A stretch of 51,327 nucleotides of DNA from a virus (lineage: Duplodnaviria; Caudoviricetes), in IMG/VR virus record IMGVR_UViG_3300010354_000127, positions 1-51,327 of that record. One strand, given 5' to 3'. This document shows, piece after piece, positions 6,928-37,135 of the stretch. Numbering within the stretch: the stretch's first letter is position 1; every line of letters starts with the position of its first letter. A program made the translations under genes and the position numbers. Below the pieces are notes generated by a model. It was not told where the DNA came from and made no database searches. It saw only the letters and a program-made list of their open reading frames with translations.

Positions 6928-7685
6928 CCGATTCAACCGCGATCACAACAGTTGAGCAGCAGCAGCAGCAGCCAGCGCCGCTGGCGTTCCTGCACGACGG
7001 CAAGGCATTCGACCACCTGTGGCGCGTCGCCAAGGCGTTCAGCATGAGCGGGATGGTTCCATCTCACTACCAGGGCAAGCCGGAGGCCTGCATGGTGGCG
7101 CTGATGTACGCCGAGCAGCTGGGAGAGCATCCGATGCTGATGTTCCAGGAGATGGCGCCGATCAAGGGCCGACCGAACACGTCGGCGCGATTCGCCATCG
7201 CCCGTGCGAATAAGTCGGGCCTGTTGAAGGGCCCGATCGGGTGGAGCAGCAAGGGGCAGGGGGAAGCTCTGGAGGTGACCGCGAAGGCGGTGCTGCGCGA
7301 CACCGGGGAGACGGTCAGCACCACGGTGACGATGCGCGAAGCGATCGCCGATGGGTGGACCAAGAACGACAAGTACAGGTCGATTCCTGAGCAGATGCTG
7401 CGCTGGCGGTCCGCTACCCGCCTGATCAATCTCTACATCCCCGAAGTGCTGTTCGGGTTGGGCGTGAGGGAGGAGGTCGAAACCGTAACCGTGAGGGGTG
7501 CGGATGTGTTGCCAGCCAGCAACGATGTCGTCGCGCAACTGAACGATCAGATCCGAGCGAATGCCGAGACTGTAGAAGTGCTGGATGAGCATCAAGTAAC
7601 AATCGAAGCGGCGCCAGAAGCAACAACAACGCCACCTGCCACGCAGCAGGCGGAGATTGTCACCGTAAAAGAAGATCCATTCTGA
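6924..7685 (+). CDS. RecT-like single-strand annealing protein
   Basis: SGMVPSHYQGKPEACMVA and PEQMLRWRS motifs; downstream of the RecE-like gene; acidic C-terminus EDPF. Confidence 0.75.
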   Translation: MTDSTAITTVEQQQQQPAPLAFLHDGKAFDHLWRVAKAFSMSGMVPSHYQGKPEACMVALMYAEQLGEHPMLMFQEMAPIKGRPNTSARFAIARANKSGLLKGPIGWSSKGQGEALEVTAKAVLRDTGETVSTTVTMREAIADGWTKNDKYRSIPEQMLRWRSATRLINLYIPEVLFGLGVREEVETVTVRGADVLPASNDVVAQLNDQIRANAETVEVLDEHQVTIEAAPEATTTPPATQQAEIVTVKEDPF

Positions 7686-12368: not shown

Positions 12369-12586
12369 TGTACGGCCTGAAGCGCGCCGGGCAGTGGGTT
12401 TCTGCCGGCTCCCCCGTGATCAACGGGCTCATCCCCGCGACCATCCTGCTGTCGGACGACAGCCGCGACGCCTGGCTGTCGCCCACCCTGGACGACGCCC
12501 TAGAGCGCCGGACGCTGCTGCAGATGGTCTTCGGCCTCACCACCGAGGTGAGGCCCCTTCGCCCTTCTACCTCCCGCGACGAATGA
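12368..12586 (+). CDS. Hypothetical protein
   Basis: MYGLKRAGQWV...; overlaps both neighbours. Confidence 0.55.
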   Translation: MYGLKRAGQWVSAGSPVINGLIPATILLSDDSRDAWLSPTLDDALERRTLLQMVFGLTTEVRPLRPSTSRDE

Positions 12587-13092
12587 TCCTCCCTGACTTC
12601 CAGATCCGCCGGCTGTGCGAGGCCGGCATGGTCGAGCCGTTTGATCCGGCCCTGGTGAACCCCGCCTCGCTGGATGTGCGGCTGGGGCACAAGCTCCTGA
12701 TCGAGGGGGCCGAGAGTCGCCGGATGGTGTCCTACCCGTTCCACACCCACACCGAGGAGGAGCCGTATCTGCTGGTGGCCGGCCAGTTCGTGCTCGCCCC
12801 GACGCTGGAGTTCGTGCGGGTGCCCGAGACCTGCAATGCGCAGTTCGTGCTGAAGTCGAGCAGGGCCAGGGAGGGGATCGAGCACCTGCTGGCTGGATAC
12901 CTCGATCCGGGGTTCCATGGGGTGATCACGCTGGAGCTGCACAACAGCCGGCAGCTGCATGCGGTGCCGATCTGGCCTGGGATGAAGATCGGCCAGCTTG
13001 TGTTCAGCCAGATGCTGGCGCCGCCGGAGCGCAGCTATGCCATGACGGGCCGCTACCAGGGCGACACGACCGTGATGGAGTCGAAGGGCTGA
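12583..13092 (+). CDS. dcd: dCTP deaminase
   Basis: MILPD, VNPASLDVRLG, KSSRAREG, AGYLDPGFHGVITLEL, GMKIGQL, GRYQG. Confidence 0.92.
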   Translation: MILPDFQIRRLCEAGMVEPFDPALVNPASLDVRLGHKLLIEGAESRRMVSYPFHTHTEEEPYLLVAGQFVLAPTLEFVRVPETCNAQFVLKSSRAREGIEHLLAGYLDPGFHGVITLELHNSRQLHAVPIWPGMKIGQLVFSQMLAPPERSYAMTGRYQGDTTVMESKG

Positions 13093-15317: not shown

Positions 15318-15653
15318 ATGGCTCAACCCATAGCGTGCCCGTGCTGCTTGCACGAGGAGACCATGCGTGCTCGCACTCAGAGGCGTGAACCATGCCACGA
15401 CGATCAAGCCTTGATGCTCTGGAACAAGCCTCGTGGCGGCGCACGCGGTCAGCAAGTCACGGAATGGGATCAAGGTTGGTGGGAGTGCGTGATCTGCGAT
15501 CTGCGTTTGACCCCACACAAGGCAGGCGTCTTGCTGGATGCGGCGCTGATGCACGCCTTCCCTGATTGCGATTCAATCAGTTCGGAAGGAATCCACGCCG
15601 ACACGCTCAGAGCGCTTCAGGGCGGGAGCAGAACCACAAGTGAAGCAGGCTAA
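15318..15653 (+). CDS. Hypothetical Cys-rich protein
   Basis: AAGGAG upstream; CPCC and CVIC motifs. Confidence 0.6.
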   Translation: MAQPIACPCCLHEETMRARTQRREPCHDDQALMLWNKPRGGARGQQVTEWDQGWWECVICDLRLTPHKAGVLLDAALMHAFPDCDSISSEGIHADTLRALQGGSRTTSEAG

Positions 15654-15730: not shown

Positions 15731-15822
15731 GACAGCGCTGAGCGCCGCTACGCCGCTCATCGCGTCGCCTAGCTGCGCAGCTCCTCGCACCGCCAACCAT
15801 CGGGGGCCTCACCCGAGGCCCC
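15731..15822 (+). ncRNA. Pentamer-repeat unit 1 (putative guide-like RNA)
   Basis: gacAG cgcTG agcGC cgcTA cgcCG ctcAT cgcGT cgcCT agcTG cgcAG ctcCT cgcAC cgcCA accAT, then CG and hairpin GGGGCCTC-accc-GAGGCCCC. Confidence 0.75.
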
Positions 15823-15851
15823 ACACCCCACCCCTGAGCCACCGGCTCACT

Positions 15852-15950
15852 GGTGGGCTGTCCCACCGACCGCCGCGACGCATCGCGACGCTGCACCGCG
15901 CCGTCCATTGCGGCGCTCAGCACACCACCGGGGGCCTGTCTTCAAGCCCC
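15852..15950 (+). ncRNA. Pentamer-repeat unit 2
   Basis: 5' hairpin GGTGGG-ctgt-CCCACC; accGC cgcGA cgcAT cgcGA cgcTG cacCG cgcCG tccAT tgcGG cgcTC agcAC accAC; then CG and a GGGGC...GCCCC hairpin. Confidence 0.75.
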
Positions 15951-15971
15951 TCCATCTATCCCACGAGGACC

Positions 15972-16601
15972 ATGGCATTTCGCCGTTTCCAGCTGACCAT
16001 CGAGGGCACGCGCCCTCTCATCCTGTCCAATCCCTGCACCGTCGACCCCCTGGGCCCGCACGCTGCAGCCATCAAGTACTTCACCGGCCTGAAGAAGAAC
16101 CGCAACGAGCACGCGCTGCGTCGCCTCCACTGGCTGTTCTCCGGCTACTGGGGCACCGAAGGCACCTTCACCTATGGCCCCTCCCTCGATGGTGATTCCG
16201 CCTTCGAGGGCTTCGCTCATCCCTTCCTCCCCGCTCAGAATCTGCAGCGCTGCATCCGTGATGGCGCGACCGCCTGGAAGCTCGGGAAGGACACGAAGCG
16301 CGCGATCGTCGTCGAGGGTGACGCACCACTGGGCTACGAAGGCCCGACCGATGCCGGGCTGATGTACGAAGACCCGCGCTTCGTCTCGATCGCCCCCACC
16401 GGCCGCGGCACCATGGCGGTGCGCGTGCGCATCCCACACTGGAGCGCCAGCTACTCGATGCTGGTCAACGACGAGATCATCGACCCGCAGACGCTGGCCA
16501 AGATCCTCGATCGGGCCGGCATCGCCGAGGGCCTCGGCACCTGGCGTCCAATGCACGGCCGCTTCCAGGTGACGCAGCTCGATGAAGTGGAGGTGGGCTG
16601 A
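15972..16601 (+). CDS. Standalone Cas7/RAMP-like RNA-binding protein
   Basis: N-terminal strand LTIEGTRPLIL, PFLPAQNLQRCIRDGA, and a C-terminal Gly-rich loop AGIAEGLGTWRPMHGRFQV, the layout of RAMP proteins; GAGGA upstream. Confidence 0.65.
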   Translation: MAFRRFQLTIEGTRPLILSNPCTVDPLGPHAAAIKYFTGLKKNRNEHALRRLHWLFSGYWGTEGTFTYGPSLDGDSAFEGFAHPFLPAQNLQRCIRDGATAWKLGKDTKRAIVVEGDAPLGYEGPTDAGLMYEDPRFVSIAPTGRGTMAVRVRIPHWSASYSMLVNDEIIDPQTLAKILDRAGIAEGLGTWRPMHGRFQVTQLDEVEVG

Positions 16602-17104
16602 TGAGGGCCGCTTCGATCGACGCCACCAAGCTGTTCAAGGGGCAGACGATCCCCGGGGAGCTGGTGTGGGAGCACTACGTGAACAGGAAGCCCGACAAGC
16701 TGCAGGCCTGGCTGGATGAGCACGGGGATGAGGAGACCGCCAAGCTGGCGCGGCTGCCCTATGTGCTGCTCCAGGTGAGGGACTGGCTGGAGCGGGACCG
16801 CCGGGAGGCGGAGCTGCCGCCGCTGGTGATGAACACGGTGGGCGGCGTGATCAACGTGCTCACTGACGAGAAGGCCTCGACCTACCTGAACGATCAGGCG
16901 TTCCAGGGGCTGCGGCGGCACCAGCGGGCCACGAACCGGCTGGTGACGGCAGTGGACGAGAGCCGGCTGACGGGTGCCGCGAAGCGTGAGCACCAGAATC
17001 GGATCAACGTGCACAGCTTCATCGCCGCATCGGCCCAGGGTGCGCAGCGTCAGCTGCGGCTGCTGAAGCGCGCTGGCAAGGAGGCGCCGAAGCTGGAGGG
17101 CTGA
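16601..17104 (+). CDS. Hypothetical partner protein, translationally coupled to the RAMP-like gene
   Basis: TGATG overlap; 167 aa; lies between the repeat clusters. Confidence 0.75.
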   Translation: MRAASIDATKLFKGQTIPGELVWEHYVNRKPDKLQAWLDEHGDEETAKLARLPYVLLQVRDWLERDRREAELPPLVMNTVGGVINVLTDEKASTYLNDQAFQGLRRHQRATNRLVTAVDESRLTGAAKREHQNRINVHSFIAASAQGAQRQLRLLKRAGKEAPKLEG

Positions 17105-17107
17105 TGG

Positions 17108-17219
17108 CCTGGGCATCCGTCAGGTGTAAGCCCCAGGACCGCGCCTCTCTCCGCCGCGCCTCGCGACGCGCCGCCTCACACCGCGCCGCCAACCACCGAG
17201 GCCCTGGGCAACCGGGGCC
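17108..17219 (+). ncRNA. Pentamer-repeat unit 3
   Basis: 5' stem CCTGGG...CCCAGG; gacCG cgcCT ctcTC cgcCG cgcCT cgcGA cgcGC cgcCT cacAC cgcGC cgcCA accAC; then CG and hairpin GGCCCTGG-gcaa-CCGGGGCC. Confidence 0.75.
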
Positions 17220-17228
17220 GCCCTTCAT

Positions 17229-17347
17229 CACCCGCTGCAGGCGCATGAGCCGAGCGGGTGCCATCACCGACGCCTTGCCTCGCCACGCCGCGCGTCGCAT
17301 CGCTCCGCACCGCAGCGCAGCGCACCGGCCCCCTCTTCGGAGGGGGC
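17229..17347 (+). ncRNA. Pentamer-repeat unit 4
   Basis: 5' stem CACCCGCT...AGCGGGTG; accGA cgcCT tgcCT cgcCA cgcCG cgcGT cgcAT cgcTC cgcAC cgcAG cgcAG cgcAC; then CG and hairpin GCCCCCTC-ttcg-GAGGGGGC. Confidence 0.78.
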
Positions 17348-17377
17348 ACACCCCACCTCTCAGCTGCTCGGCTGCCA

Positions 17378-17470
17378 GGTGGGCTGATCGCTCACCACGC
17401 CGCAGCGCCGCGCGACTCAGTGCGCCGCGCCGCTGAGCGGCGCATCGCACCGGGCCCCCGCCAGGGGGCC
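17378..17470 (+). ncRNA. Pentamer-repeat unit 5
   Basis: 5' hairpin GGTGGGC-tgatc-GCTCACC; cacGC cgcAG cgcCG cgcGA ctcAG tgcGC cgcGC cgcTG agcGG cgcAT cgcAC; then CG and hairpin GGCCCCC-gcca-GGGGGCC. Confidence 0.78.
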
Positions 17471-17495
17471 TCATCAACCATCACTCACTCCAGCC

Positions 17496-17741: not shown

Positions 17742-17778
17742 TGCTGTATCAGCAGCGCACACTTATCACCCAGATCGC

Positions 17779-18165
17779 TTGCGCTGCAGTCGATGTCTTA
17801 TTGAGAACCGCTGAGAATGGCCGATTGTGAACGGATGTAACGCAGGCCAGTGTGACACCTGTGGAAATCGAGTTCTCCACAGGTACGCCCGTACCAGTTC
17901 GGCCAGATCCCTTGCGCCGCAATGTATCTCGGCTGTGGTACGCCCGTATCATTGGGCCTCATTCGGTATCGCCCTGATACCAACGCTGCAACGCCTTGTG
18001 CCAATTTCGGCCCGTTCCGTGTGCAGCGAGTGTGCCAATTTTTTCTGATAGTGCCACTTGCTCACCGGCACACGCACCGGCAGACCCGTTGCGCTGCAGT
18101 CGATCTCGCCGATCTTGGTACGCCCGTACCAGCCGCGTCGGCGCCGCGTCGTGCAACGCCTTGCA
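17779..18165. promoter_or_regulatory. Non-coding region rich in repeated palindromes (putative protein-binding sites)
   Basis: GGTACGCCCGTA(C/T)C at 17882, 17937 and 18117; TTGCGCTGCAGTCGAT twice; further inverted repeats. Confidence 0.55.
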
Positions 18166-36136: not shown

Positions 36137-37135
36137 CTATTGCAGGGTGGTGATCTGGGCTTCCCAGTTGGTGAGGTGCCACGCCTCGTCGAGGGCGTCG
36201 CGGCTCAGGATGAACCGGTCGTGATCGACCGCATGGGTGATGACGATGCCATCGACGATCGTGCCGCTCTCGAAGACGTCATCCTCGAACACATCACTGT
36301 CGAAGACCGACTGGACACCCACGCCGACGGTGGTGATGGCCGCCGGCCAGTTGGTGACGTGCCATTCCTCATCGAGGACGCCCTGGCTGAGGAGGAAGCG
36401 ATCCTGGTTCGTCGCCGCTTCCATCCGCATCGCGGTGGCGACGCTGGCCACGACCGTTTCGATCGCGACCTGGAATGCCTTCAAGGCGCCGAAGCTGACC
36501 TGCGGGAAGTCCTGCAGGTCGGACTCGATGGCCTGCGTCCACGGCTGATCGTTCCAGCTGAACAGGCCCCAGGTCAGGCCGGTGCCCAGCTCGGAATTGA
36601 ACAGCCGCACCCCGCTGTGATCCGACAGCATCCCGCCCTCGGAGAGCAGGGTGTCGTCCAGCACGAATCGGCGCATGTCGTAATGCACCGAATAGACCCG
36701 CTGCAGTCGGCTGCGCACCGGCGCGCTGATCCGGCTGAGGCCCACCAGACGGCGCAGCGCATCGAACCCGGTCGACGGCTGCTGCAGGCCCACCATGAAC
36801 TCCGACCAGCGGAAGGTGCCGGCCTCCGGTTCCTCCACCCACCCGTCAAGGTTCAGCCAGCTCAGGCCGATGGTCAGCGCCTGGGGCGTGCCCCGGATCC
36901 GCTGCCACAGGATCCCCTCGGCCAGCGCCCGGCGCTCATCCTCCAGGTAGGGCAGCAGCTCGCCGAGGCCGTATTCGTAGATCAGCCATGGCACCACGCT
37001 GTCGGGGATGTTGAGCCGCTTGGCGGTGCGGATGATCGGCACCGGACCGGCGGCCCGCACCAGGCTGGAGGTGGACCGGCTGAGGTCGCGCTCCAGCTGC
37101 GTCGCATTGGGCGGCAGCAGGTCGTGACGGCTCAT
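36137..37135 (-). CDS. P2 gpI-like baseplate protein
   Basis: LLPPNAT.LER, VPWLIYEYGL, WQRIRGTP; follows gpJ. Confidence 0.85.
   Translation of the reverse strand: MSRHDLLPPNATQLERDLSRSTSSLVRAAGPVPIIRTAKRLNIPDSVVPWLIYEYGLGELLPYLEDERRALAEGILWQRIRGTPQALTIGLSWLNLDGWVEEPEAGTFRWSEFMVGLQQPSTGFDALRRLVGLSRISAPVRSRLQRVYSVHYDMRRFVLDDTLLSEGGMLSDHSGVRLFNSELGTGLTWGLFSWNDQPWTQAIESDLQDFPQVSFGALKAFQVAIETVVASVATAMRMEAATNQDRFLLSQGVLDEEWHVTNWPAAITTVGVGVQSVFDSDVFEDDVFESGTIVDGIVITHAVDHDRFILSRDALDEAWHLTNWEAQITTLQ

What the first reader, a model, noticed from the sequence alone, without database searches (positions are those of the whole stretch)
15972..16601. Orphan Cas7/RAMP-like protein in a phage with no cas operon
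The 209-aa ORF shows a RAMP-like layout: first strand with a Pro (LTIEGTRPLIL), a P.LP...L...IR helix entry, and a terminal Gly-rich loop followed by GRF.V. No other Cas-like gene is visible. It may be a minimal effector backbone, or an anti-CRISPR mimic. The fold call is pattern recognition only.
Basis: inference. Interest (0 to 1): 0.8.

Follow-up and report, generated by a model that had tools for sequence, protein, structure and literature searches.

The report
Phage VIPR system with CGC-scaffold guides
The flagged gene encodes a Vipr protein, a Cas7-like protein that phages load with their own short guide RNAs to silence rival phages, and this copy belongs to a branch whose guide RNAs use a CGC scaffold instead of the published GGY one.

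Summary
It is not an orphan. It is the Vipr protein of a VIPR (Viral Interference Programmable Repeat) system, a kind described in 2026 preprints. Its only PDB sequence match is the SUSP1 Vipr structure 36pp (E = 1e-11 alone, 1.3e-21 as a profile).

The locus spans about 15735-17480 and has the published layout: two vrRNA genes, vipr, an overlapping 167-aa accessory gene, then three more vrRNA genes. Each vrRNA has 10-12 pentamer units followed by a hairpin tail.

The fixed triplet is CGC (more broadly Y-[G/T]-C), not GGY. The two SUSP1 residues that read the first G (H17, D177) are Ser and Thr here; the other contacts are conserved. Across 117 loci, repeat base 1 tracks residue 17. My first idea, that D177 to T alone explains the switch, was refuted.

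The accessory gene is unrelated to vap1 but travels with this Vipr subfamily.

A sister cassette's guide matches a rival phage gene at 20/20 NN positions under the 1-nt-skip rule, with skips at wobble positions. No target was found for this phage's own five guides, and no expression data could be obtained.

Verdict: a new member of a known kind; moderate interest.

The parts
15735..15834 (+). vrRNA U1: 12 pentamer units (8 exact N-CGC-N) at 15735-15794, then a tail with an 8-bp GC hairpin and a C/A-rich 3' end
   Evidence: Register and units; tail fold -18.4 kcal/mol, z=-4.2
15873..15955 (+). vrRNA U2: 9 units called at 15873-15917 (6 exact CGC) plus 2 degenerate units, then a hairpin tail that ends about 17 nt before the vipr start codon
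   Evidence: tail fold -12.4 kcal/mol, z=-2.7
15972..16601 (+). vipr: 209-aa RAMP/Cas7-like protein with G-loop E-G-L-G-T-W-R-P; Ser at SUSP1 position 17 and Thr at position 177
16601..17104 (+). 167-aa accessory gene in the vap position; its start overlaps the vipr stop by one base; mostly helical; no known family
17141..17232 (+). vrRNA D1: 10 units (8 exact CGC) at 17141-17190, then a hairpin tail
   Evidence: tail fold -18.4 kcal/mol
17270..17357 (+). vrRNA D2: 11 units (10 exact CGC) at 17270-17324, then a hairpin tail; the most regular guide
   Evidence: tail fold -17.9 kcal/mol, z=-3.4
17400..17479 (+). vrRNA D3: 10 units (7 exact CGC) at 17400-17449, then a hairpin tail that ends just before the next gene (17496)
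   Evidence: tail fold -18.8 kcal/mol, z=-3.6

Best explanation
The ORF encodes Vipr, the RNA-binding backbone protein of a phage VIPR system. The cassette at about 15735-17480 encodes five roughly 90-100-nt vrRNAs, Vipr, and a 167-aa accessory protein. By homology with SUSP1 VIPR (inferred, not shown here), one Vipr protomer binds each pentamer unit and the protomers form a helical filament along the vrRNA. The fixed triplet (CGC here) is flipped into protein pockets. The two variable bases of each unit are left exposed to pair with double-stranded DNA that carries matching dinucleotides separated by one skipped base. Binding silences transcription of a competing phage or satellite in the same host, probably a Cyanobium-type picocyanobacterium. 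This copy belongs to a Vipr subfamily (Ser17, G-loop EGLGTWR) that reads a Y-[G/T]-C scaffold instead of GGY and is always paired with its own accessory-protein family.
For: Homology: 36pp 'SUSP1 Vipr protein' is the only significant PDB sequence hit (E=1e-11 single sequence; E=1.3e-21 as a profile). Fold: pLDDT 90 model whose best PDB matches are all Cas7-family subunits. Arrays: at >=5 of 7 CGC at period 5 the whole window has exactly five arrays, all on the + strand flanking vipr. At >=6 of 8 it has two, against 0 in 50 simulated windows. In 24 related IMG/VR loci a scan of all 64 trinucleotides gave 36 CGC arrays, 1 CTC array and nothing else, in 18 of 24 loci for CGC, always beside vipr on its strand. 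Over 425 units from 43 distinct arrays the fixed positions are C 84% / G 88% / C 96%; the two N positions have 1.96 and 1.97 bits and use all 16 dinucleotides. Positive control: the same scanner finds GGT/NN arrays, 1 upstream and 3 downstream, in Felix O1-like phage Z31, the arrangement published for SUSP1. Tails: 43 of 43 fold into a hairpin of >=5 bp using 25 different stem arms, with compensatory changes at all 4 aligned pairs. Contacts: R138, W178, R179 and K33 are conserved. Code: a guide of sister cassette G304 matches phage G305 at 20/20 NN positions under the 1-nt skip only, in phase with codons and with skips at wobble positions. The best of 860 shuffled guides reached 0.938. The window's guides do not hit their own genome: best scores 13-16 of 18-24 NN positions, all below 80%. 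Mechanism details come from sections of 10.64898/2026.04.26.720920 and 10.64898/2026.04.26.720927 read.
Against: No natural target was found for any of the window's five guides. No expression evidence: the sequencing-run tool could not be reached, and a sigma-70 consensus scan found no promoter. By sequence only residues 86-205 align to 36pp. The defining GGY motif is absent and both G1-contact residues are replaced, so RNA loading is inferred for this clade, not shown. The accessory protein shows no similarity to vap1 and no recognisable DNA-binding fold (best Foldseek E=0.49). The one perfect target comes from another phage's cassette, and that guide also matches its own genome at 18/20. Fixed-position frequencies are partly circular, because the arrays were found by their CGC content. 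The host assignment rests only on TerL similarity to contigs binned in MAGs.
Confidence: 0.9

Rival explanations
1. Anti-CRISPR mimic: a stand-alone Cas7 look-alike that poisons host type I or type III effector complexes or soaks up host crRNA, with no guides of its own.
For: It has a Cas7-like fold, is phage-encoded, and has no cas genes nearby.
Against: It is homologous to a characterised guide-binding Vipr. It is always flanked on its own strand by period-5 arrays whose variable positions are near maximum entropy. A sister guide matches a rival phage gene at 20/20. Nothing in the window resembles a CRISPR repeat.
Confidence: 0.02
2. Same components, different action: the complex guides destruction of DNA, or acts on RNA, with the unknown 167-aa partner as the effector, rather than silencing transcription.
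For: The discovery paper says some VIPR types carry nuclease or helicase vap genes. This partner has no assigned fold or family, so an enzymatic role is not excluded.
Against: The model is a small helical protein with no nuclease or helicase family hit. The paper ties nuclease-bearing types to cellular defence islands, whereas this cassette is in phages.
Confidence: 0.06
3. The CGC tracts are not guide RNAs. They would be DNA-level elements (protein-binding iterons, or GC-rich spacers with terminators), and the protein does something else.
For: No transcript data, no promoter predicted, and the genome is GC-rich, so CGC is common.
Against: 0 arrays in 50 composition-matched simulations. No arrays elsewhere in the 51 kb at >=5/7. 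Strict strand bias relative to vipr: 0 GCG arrays among all 64 trinucleotides scanned. The variable positions are A/T-enriched relative to the genome. Low-GC relatives keep the same architecture with CTC/TTC units. The codon-phased 20/20 match fits a pairing code.
Confidence: 0.02

Closest known systems
SUSP1 / Felix O1-like phage VIPR (type II; PDB 36pp; bioRxiv 10.64898/2026.04.26.720920 and 10.64898/2026.04.26.720927)
   Same: Homologous Vipr. Same locus order of vrRNA(s), vipr, an abutting small gene, then a vrRNA array. 10-12 pentamer units followed by a structured tail. R138, W178, R179 and K33 conserved. The 1-nt-skip code with wobble-phased targets holds in this clade.
   Different: About 26-27% identity. 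Scaffold CGC, not GGT. H17 becomes Ser and D177 becomes Thr. An insertion of about 18 aa after residue 60 and a 3-aa shorter thumb. The accessory protein is unrelated to vap1. Two upstream vrRNAs rather than one. The host is probably a cyanobacterium rather than an enterobacterium.
Non-canonical VIPR arrays (bioRxiv 10.64898/2026.10.21.760802) and the alternative units NNNGG, YNNNG, NNNNG (methods of 10.64898/2026.04.26.720920)
   Same: Period-5 arrays of about 10 units with a fixed triplet other than GGY beside a Vipr-like protein (passages read). CGC/NN formally fits YNNNG.
   Different: The examples named in the text are GAC, CAC, WGT and TGH. 'CGC' has 0 occurrences in the text of all four VIPR papers. 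The CTC/TTC units of the low-GC relatives contain no G and fit none of the named units. The figures and supplements that list all motifs could not be seen.
Class 1 CRISPR backbone subunits Cas7 (Csm3, Cmr4, Csf2, type VII Cas7)
   Same: RRM core, glycine-rich loop and thumb. Best structural matches have probability 1.00 and TM about 0.5. The protein multimerises along a guide RNA with periodic base flipping (by homology with SUSP1 Vipr).
   Different: 9-12% identity. No CRISPR array, no cas genes and no adaptation module. The period is 5 nt with 3 bases sequestered, not 6 nt with 1. It is encoded by a phage.

Membership tests
VIPR system | Protein homologous to a characterised Vipr | tested here: met
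   36pp_D at E=1e-11 and E=1.3e-21 with a profile. It is the only PDB sequence hit below 0.01.
VIPR system | RAMP architecture: RRM core, glycine-rich loop, thumb | tested here: met
   pLDDT 90 model. All top Foldseek hits are Cas7-family subunits. G-loop G-L-G-T-W-R-P and the thumb Arg align with SUSP1.
VIPR system | RNA and target contact residues of SUSP1 Vipr for G2, Y3 and the skipped base (R138, W178, R179, K33) | tested here: met
   All four are identical in the window protein. Among 134 family representatives R138 is kept in 129 and R179 in 123.
VIPR system | G1 contact residues H17 and D177 | tested here: not met
   Ser and Thr in the window protein. This is consistent with a scaffold whose first base is C, not G.
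VIPR system | Intergenic arrays of 9-16 pentamer units beside vipr, a fixed triplet alternating with a hypervariable NN | tested here: met
   Five arrays of 9-12 called units. 0 arrays in 50 simulations. NN entropy 1.96-1.97 bits. Conserved in related loci.
VIPR system | Canonical GGY/NN (YNNGG) unit | tested here: not met
   No GGY array in the window or in the 24 window-clade loci or 66 distant Ser/Gly17-type loci. G at position 1 is 1%. The discovery paper allows 'a related consensus'.
VIPR system | Conserved structured 3' tail after the repeat tract | tested here: met
   43 of 43 tails form a hairpin, with 25 distinct stem arms and compensatory changes. A pseudoknot like that of SUSP1 was not tested.
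VIPR system | Minimal two-gene locus (vipr plus vap), phage-borne, no cas genes | tested here: met
   The partner gene follows vipr in all 22 loci that extend far enough and in 61 distant loci. The window is a complete phage genome. There are no defence-family hits. The partner is not homologous to vap1.
VIPR system | Natural targets matched by NN positions with a 1-nt skip, skips at wobble positions | tested here: inconclusive
   Met for the clade: a G304 guide matches a G305 gene at 20/20, in codon phase. Not met for the window's own five guides: no target was found.
VIPR system | No self-targeting at >=80% NN match | tested here: met
   The window's guides score 16/24, 13/18, 15/20, 15/22 and 14/20 against their own genome, within the shuffled-guide null.
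VIPR system | vrRNAs expressed and bound by Vipr | not testable with these tools
   The sequencing-run look-up failed four times because the machine was busy. This needs small-RNA sequencing and a pull-down.
CRISPR-Cas class 1 (Cas7) | Association with a CRISPR array and other cas genes | tested here: not met
   No repeat with a CRISPR-like period. No Cas or defence hits for 10 proteins. Nine of the 10 largest ORFs match ordinary phage families and one matches none.

The most novel reading that the evidence does not exclude
Ser17-type Vipr, its private accessory-protein family and Y-[G/T]-C vrRNAs form an orthogonal VIPR subtype. In it, the residue at position 17 of strand 1 sets the first scaffold base (His or Gln reads G, Ser reads C/T, Asn reads A). 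Such a protein-RNA 'scaffold code' would stop each Vipr from being loaded with rivals' or satellites' decoy vrRNAs. It would also give mutually insulated VIPR tools. The subtype is widespread in aquatic phages, including likely cyanophages.
Probability: 0.4. Interest if true: 0.6.

Novelty: new member of a known kind. Interest (0 to 1): 0.45.

Why it matters
VIPR is a newly described RNA-guided system proposed as an ancestor of the CRISPR RAMP proteins. This locus shows that the architecture and the 1-nt-skip code persist when the scaffold triplet, both G1-reading residues and the accessory protein are all different, and it extends the system to probable freshwater cyanophages. The residue-17 versus scaffold-base correlation is a directly testable specificity rule. 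It bears on how phages avoid hijacking by decoy vrRNAs, a conflict documented for SUSP1 satellites in 10.64898/2026.10.15.759431 (passages read). It also bears on building orthogonal programmable repressors. As an instance it is unsurprising: the family has over 1,500 50%-identity clusters. Members of this clade are in NCBI, so the authors' classification probably already contains it.

Tried and rejected
1. I first proposed that D177 to Thr alone explains the G1 to C1 switch. This is rejected: Gln17/Thr177 loci carry GGC arrays. Residue 17 fits the data better.

2. Targets of the window's guides were sought and not found:
- Own genome: nothing above the shuffled-guide null.
- Five cassette-bearing phage genomes: best 16/20, within the null.
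- IMG/VR exact patterns for the D2 core, D1 and U1: 0 hits each.
- Metagenome contigs, D2 full length: 0 hits.
- Metagenome contigs, D2 9-unit core: 4 hits, on contigs of 42-46% or 73% GC, adding only 0-2 of the 4 flanking NN positions, so chance.
- 301 genomes of the Cyanobium family: 4 hits at 3 mismatches, against far more for the tool's reversed-pattern control (roughly 130 by my count of the rows), so negative.
- Guides D3 and U2 were not searched in the collections.

3. None of the 38 guides from other loci clearly hits this phage. The best was 19/24 against a null maximum of 18.

4. Accessory protein: no Pfam family, no PHROG, no PADLOC hit, no PDB fold match, hhalign probability 0.4% against Z31 vap1. 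The atlas gives only viral 'hypothetical' clusters.

5. Rfam: no family for the vrRNAs.

6. No close Vipr was found in 185,579 species genomes with this query, nor in three MAGs that carry a related TerL.

7. Single-protein locus searches for Thr177 lineages: P0103 found nothing. P0105 found two His-type loci.

8. Promoter and terminator consensus scan: uninformative.

9. Not available or not used:
- The look-up of sequencing runs was unreachable four times, so read laying was never used.
- Supplementary files and figures were not available.

Full report
**Observation**

The ORF at 15972-16601 (+) exists and encodes 209 aa. In an AlphaFold2 model built on 28 homologs (pLDDT 90.0, pTM 0.84) they fall on strand 3-12, helix 88-102, and a glycine-rich loop followed by strand 198-206. 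Pfam gives nothing significant. PHROGs gives phrog_4652, function unknown, at E=1.3e-25.

The family is large and viral:
- 129 GenBank phage records (Felix O1-like coliphages, Gordonia, Mycobacterium and Pseudomonas phages), all below 60% identity; every annotated match listed is 'hypothetical protein' or 'Phage protein'.
- 83 metagenomic homologs at E<=0.001.
- 1,511 50%-identity clusters at E<=0.001.

**Identity**

A sequence search of the PDB returns one real hit, 36pp 'SUSP1 Vipr protein'. It scores E=1e-11 over residues 86-205 and E=1.3e-21 with a family profile.

The literature search led to three 2026 bioRxiv preprints on VIPR systems. I read these parts:
- 10.64898/2026.04.26.720920: the Results and four Methods sections.
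- 10.64898/2026.04.26.720927: two Results sections.
- 10.64898/2026.10.15.759431 and 10.64898/2026.10.21.760802: passages only.

According to these papers, VIPR loci hold a RAMP homolog (vipr), an accessory gene (vap) and vrRNAs. Each vrRNA has 9-16 pentamer units in which GGY alternates with a hypervariable NN, followed by a structured tail. Vipr forms a filament with one protomer per unit. The NN bases pair with double-stranded DNA while skipping every third target base, and binding represses transcription of rival phages or satellites.

Foldseek against the PDB supports the RAMP relationship independently. That copy runs to April 2026 and so lacks 36pp. Its best matches are Cmr4, Csm3, type VII Cas7 and Csf2, with probability 1.00, TM about 0.5 and 50 matches at E<=0.001.

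**The locus**

A strict GGY scan of the window found nothing. Reading the intergenic DNA showed period-5 tracts whose fixed triplet is CGC. Laid out in register, there are five tracts on the + strand:
- U1 at 15735-15794
- U2 at 15873-15917
- D1 at 17141-17190
- D2 at 17270-17324
- D3 at 17400-17449

Each has 9-12 called units with a few degenerate ones. Each is followed by a GC-rich hairpin and a C/A-rich end.

Statistical support:
- At >=5 of 7 CGC these are the only arrays in the 51 kb, on either strand.
- At >=6 of 8 two remain, against none in 50 simulated windows.

The same scanner recovers GGT/NN arrays, one upstream and three downstream, in the Felix O1-like phage Z31. That is the arrangement published for SUSP1, so this serves as a positive control.

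Between vipr and D1 lies a 167-aa ORF (16601-17104) whose start overlaps the vipr stop.

The window is a complete virus record. It is a myovirus-like phage with sheath, tape measure, portal, TerL and a replication module, and it has no tRNAs.

**Comparative evidence**

24 IMG/VR loci encode Vipr at 49-96% identity.
- A scan of all 64 trinucleotides found 36 CGC arrays and one CTC array and nothing else. CGC arrays occur in 18 of the 24 loci. All flank vipr on its strand.
- I pooled 63 arrays, of which 44 are distinct. I dropped one, in L019, because it lies far from vipr inside coding sequence. Over the remaining 425 units the fixed positions are C 84%, G 88% and C 96%, and G at position 1 is 1%.
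- The two N positions carry 1.96 and 1.97 bits and use all 16 dinucleotides. The fixed-position figures are partly circular, because detection used CGC.
- All 43 tails fold into a hairpin of at least 5 bp (mean -16 kcal/mol, mean z -2.8) using 25 different 6-nt stem arms. The four pairs that MAFFT aligns all show double-sided compensatory changes. Rfam has no matching family.
- The 167-aa gene follows vipr in all 22 loci that extend far enough. Five other window genes are found in none of the 26 loci then held.
- Four complete phage genomes carrying the cassette have no close relative of this phage's TerL: one has a 44%-identical TerL and three have none. So the cassette moves between unrelated phages.

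**Does the code hold?**

I fetched five cassette-bearing phage genomes. I scored all 43 guides against them and the window under 0-, 1- and 2-nt skips.
- Only the 1-nt skip gave a perfect hit. The best of 860 shuffled guides reached 0.938.
- When extended, the second upstream guide of G304 matches G305 over 10 consecutive units, 20/20 NN positions. The match lies on the coding strand at residues 6-15 (TAQGIYDLLA) of a 234-aa gene of unknown function, and every skipped base is at a wobble position.
- Expected chance matches are 2.5e-5 at p=0.25 and 0.02 at p=0.35.
- G304's own 93.6%-identical homolog matches at 18/20. That is above the paper's 80% threshold, so whether G304 discriminates self from rival is open.

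For the window's own guides the results are negative. There is no self-match above the null and no target in the five genomes. Exact IMG/VR searches for the D2 core, D1 and U1 gave 0 hits each, and metagenome searches gave only chance-level hits. Across 301 genomes of the inferred host family there was no enrichment over the reversed-pattern control.

The host inference comes from TerL at 85-86% identity on contigs binned with Cyanobium and Synechococcaceae MAGs. Those MAGs show no Vipr with this query.

**How the scaffold is read**

In SUSP1, G1 is read by H17 and D177, G2 by R138 and W178, and Y3 by a pocket that includes R179. K33 holds the skipped base. In the window protein R138, W178, R179 and K33 are conserved. 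H17 is Ser and D177 is Thr.

I first attributed the G-to-C switch to D177T. A panel of 80 Thr177 loci refuted that: Gln17/Thr177 proteins carry GGC arrays.

A motif-free caller was then run on 117 loci. Its dominant motif calls were:

| Residues 17 / 177 / 178 | Dominant motif (number of loci) |
|---|---|
| Ser / Thr / Trp | CGC 14, TTC 4, CTC 1, no |
| Ser / Ala / Trp | CGC 4 |
| Asp / Thr / Trp | CTC 1, no |
| Gln / Thr / Tyr | GGC 7, AGG 1, AGA 1, no |
| His / Asp / Trp or Tyr | GGT 1, GGC 3, CGG 1, no |
| Asn / Thr / Tyr | AGC 1 |
| Gly / Thr / Trp | no |
| Other (6 loci: gaps at 17 or 177, His with Glu, Ala or Thr at 177, Cys17) | CGC 1, GGC 1, no |

I then tested the degenerate motifs directly at >=7 of 8 units. 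The counts below are loci with an array on the vipr strand:

| Group | Y-[G/T]-C | GGY |
|---|---|---|
| Window clade (24 loci) | 22 | 0 |
| Distant Ser/Gly17 loci (66) | 16 | 0 |
| Gln17 loci (11) | 0 | 4 |
| His17 loci (8) | 0 | 4 |

Two control motifs of equal degeneracy gave one array in total. On the opposite strand, Y-[G/T]-C arrays appeared in 4, 0, 1 and 1 loci respectively.

So base 1 tracks residue 17. The lineages number only about four or five and are not independent, and most distant loci gave no call. This is an inference to test, not a result.

**The accessory protein**

It has no BLASTP or hhalign similarity to the vap-position proteins of Z31 or Medea1. It has no Pfam, PHROG or PADLOC family. 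Its model is helical (pLDDT 81.7) with no significant PDB match (best E=0.49). The atlas gives only virus-restricted 'hypothetical' neighbours.

Its homologs lie just downstream of vipr in 61 distant loci, all within L088-L155, which have Ser, Gly or a gap at position 17. There are none in the 13 His17 and 11 Gln17 loci. It therefore defines a subtype together with the Vipr signature and the scaffold.

**Novelty**

VIPR itself, alternative units (NNNGG, YNNNG, NNNNG) and 21 clusters of non-canonical arrays (GAC, CAC, WGT and TGH named) are all in print. 'CGC' does not occur in the text of any of the four papers. However, the figures and supplements that list motifs and types were not visible. 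Members of this clade are in NCBI, so the authors' set probably includes it.

I therefore file this as a new member of a known kind. The scaffold code, the private accessory family and the cyanophage setting are the parts worth following up.

Noticed in passing
window 17771-18163: The intergenic region downstream of the VIPR cassette holds three families of direct repeats (27 nt x3, 16 nt x3, 12 nt x2) and a 13-nt inverted repeat. It could be an iteron-like or regulatory region. It has no period-5 structure.
   Followed up: partly
window 15827-15857, 17229-17260, 17352-17383: A second hairpin lies between consecutive vrRNAs but not after the last one of each group. It has outer CCCACC/GGTGGG-type arms and an inner stem that varies between loci. 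It may be a processing site or a 5' handle. This was read from the sequence and not tested.
   Followed up: no
L028:3118-3260 (Gordonia phage Trine); L031 (Mycobacterium phage LittleE) arrays at 2165, 2295, 3656, 3745, 3892: Actinophage vrRNAs (GGC/NN) end in tails that contain a tRNA T-arm-like GGTTCGA-TCC motif (my recognition of the motif). Trine's array lies inside an annotated 'hypothetical protein' CDS (gene 40), which suggests a mis-annotation.
   Followed up: no
L127, L128, L132, L135, L148, L153, L108 (IMG/VR, GC 0.36-0.41): Low-GC phages with the same Ser17/EGLGTWR Vipr use CTC/TTC units that contain no G. Each array is followed by a conserved ATCGC-type tail and hairpin. These units fit none of the alternative units named in the papers' text.
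   Followed up: partly
L092:3712-4170: An Asn17/Thr177/Tyr178 Vipr is flanked by four AGC/NN arrays, three of which share a near-identical tail.
   Followed up: partly
G304 (L055) about 7056-7085 versus G305 (L060) about 36573-36601: The G304 guide that matches G305 at 20/20 also matches G304's own homologous gene at 18/20. The two mismatches are in adjacent units (QGIY versus QELY). It is unclear whether this is self-avoidance or self-regulation.
   Followed up: partly
genomes G001-G303: The tool's control (the D2 pattern read backwards) hit roughly 130 of the 301 genomes, about once each, while the true pattern hit 4. The reversed pattern evidently matches some conserved gene, so this control is not neutral.
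   Followed up: no
L032-L034 (Cyanobium / Synechococcaceae / Cyanobacteriota MAG contigs): Contigs with TerL 85-86% identical to this phage's are binned in picocyanobacterial MAGs, and no Vipr was found there with this query. These are either related phages without the cassette or prophage or co-binned phage contigs.
   Followed up: partly
window 12394-13092 and 15318-15653: A dCTP deaminase lies upstream (Pfam DCD 1.8e-28; PHROG 1.3e-49). A 111-aa ORF directly upstream of U1 has a weak, sub-threshold match to the restriction-alleviation protein Lar (E=0.035).
   Followed up: no
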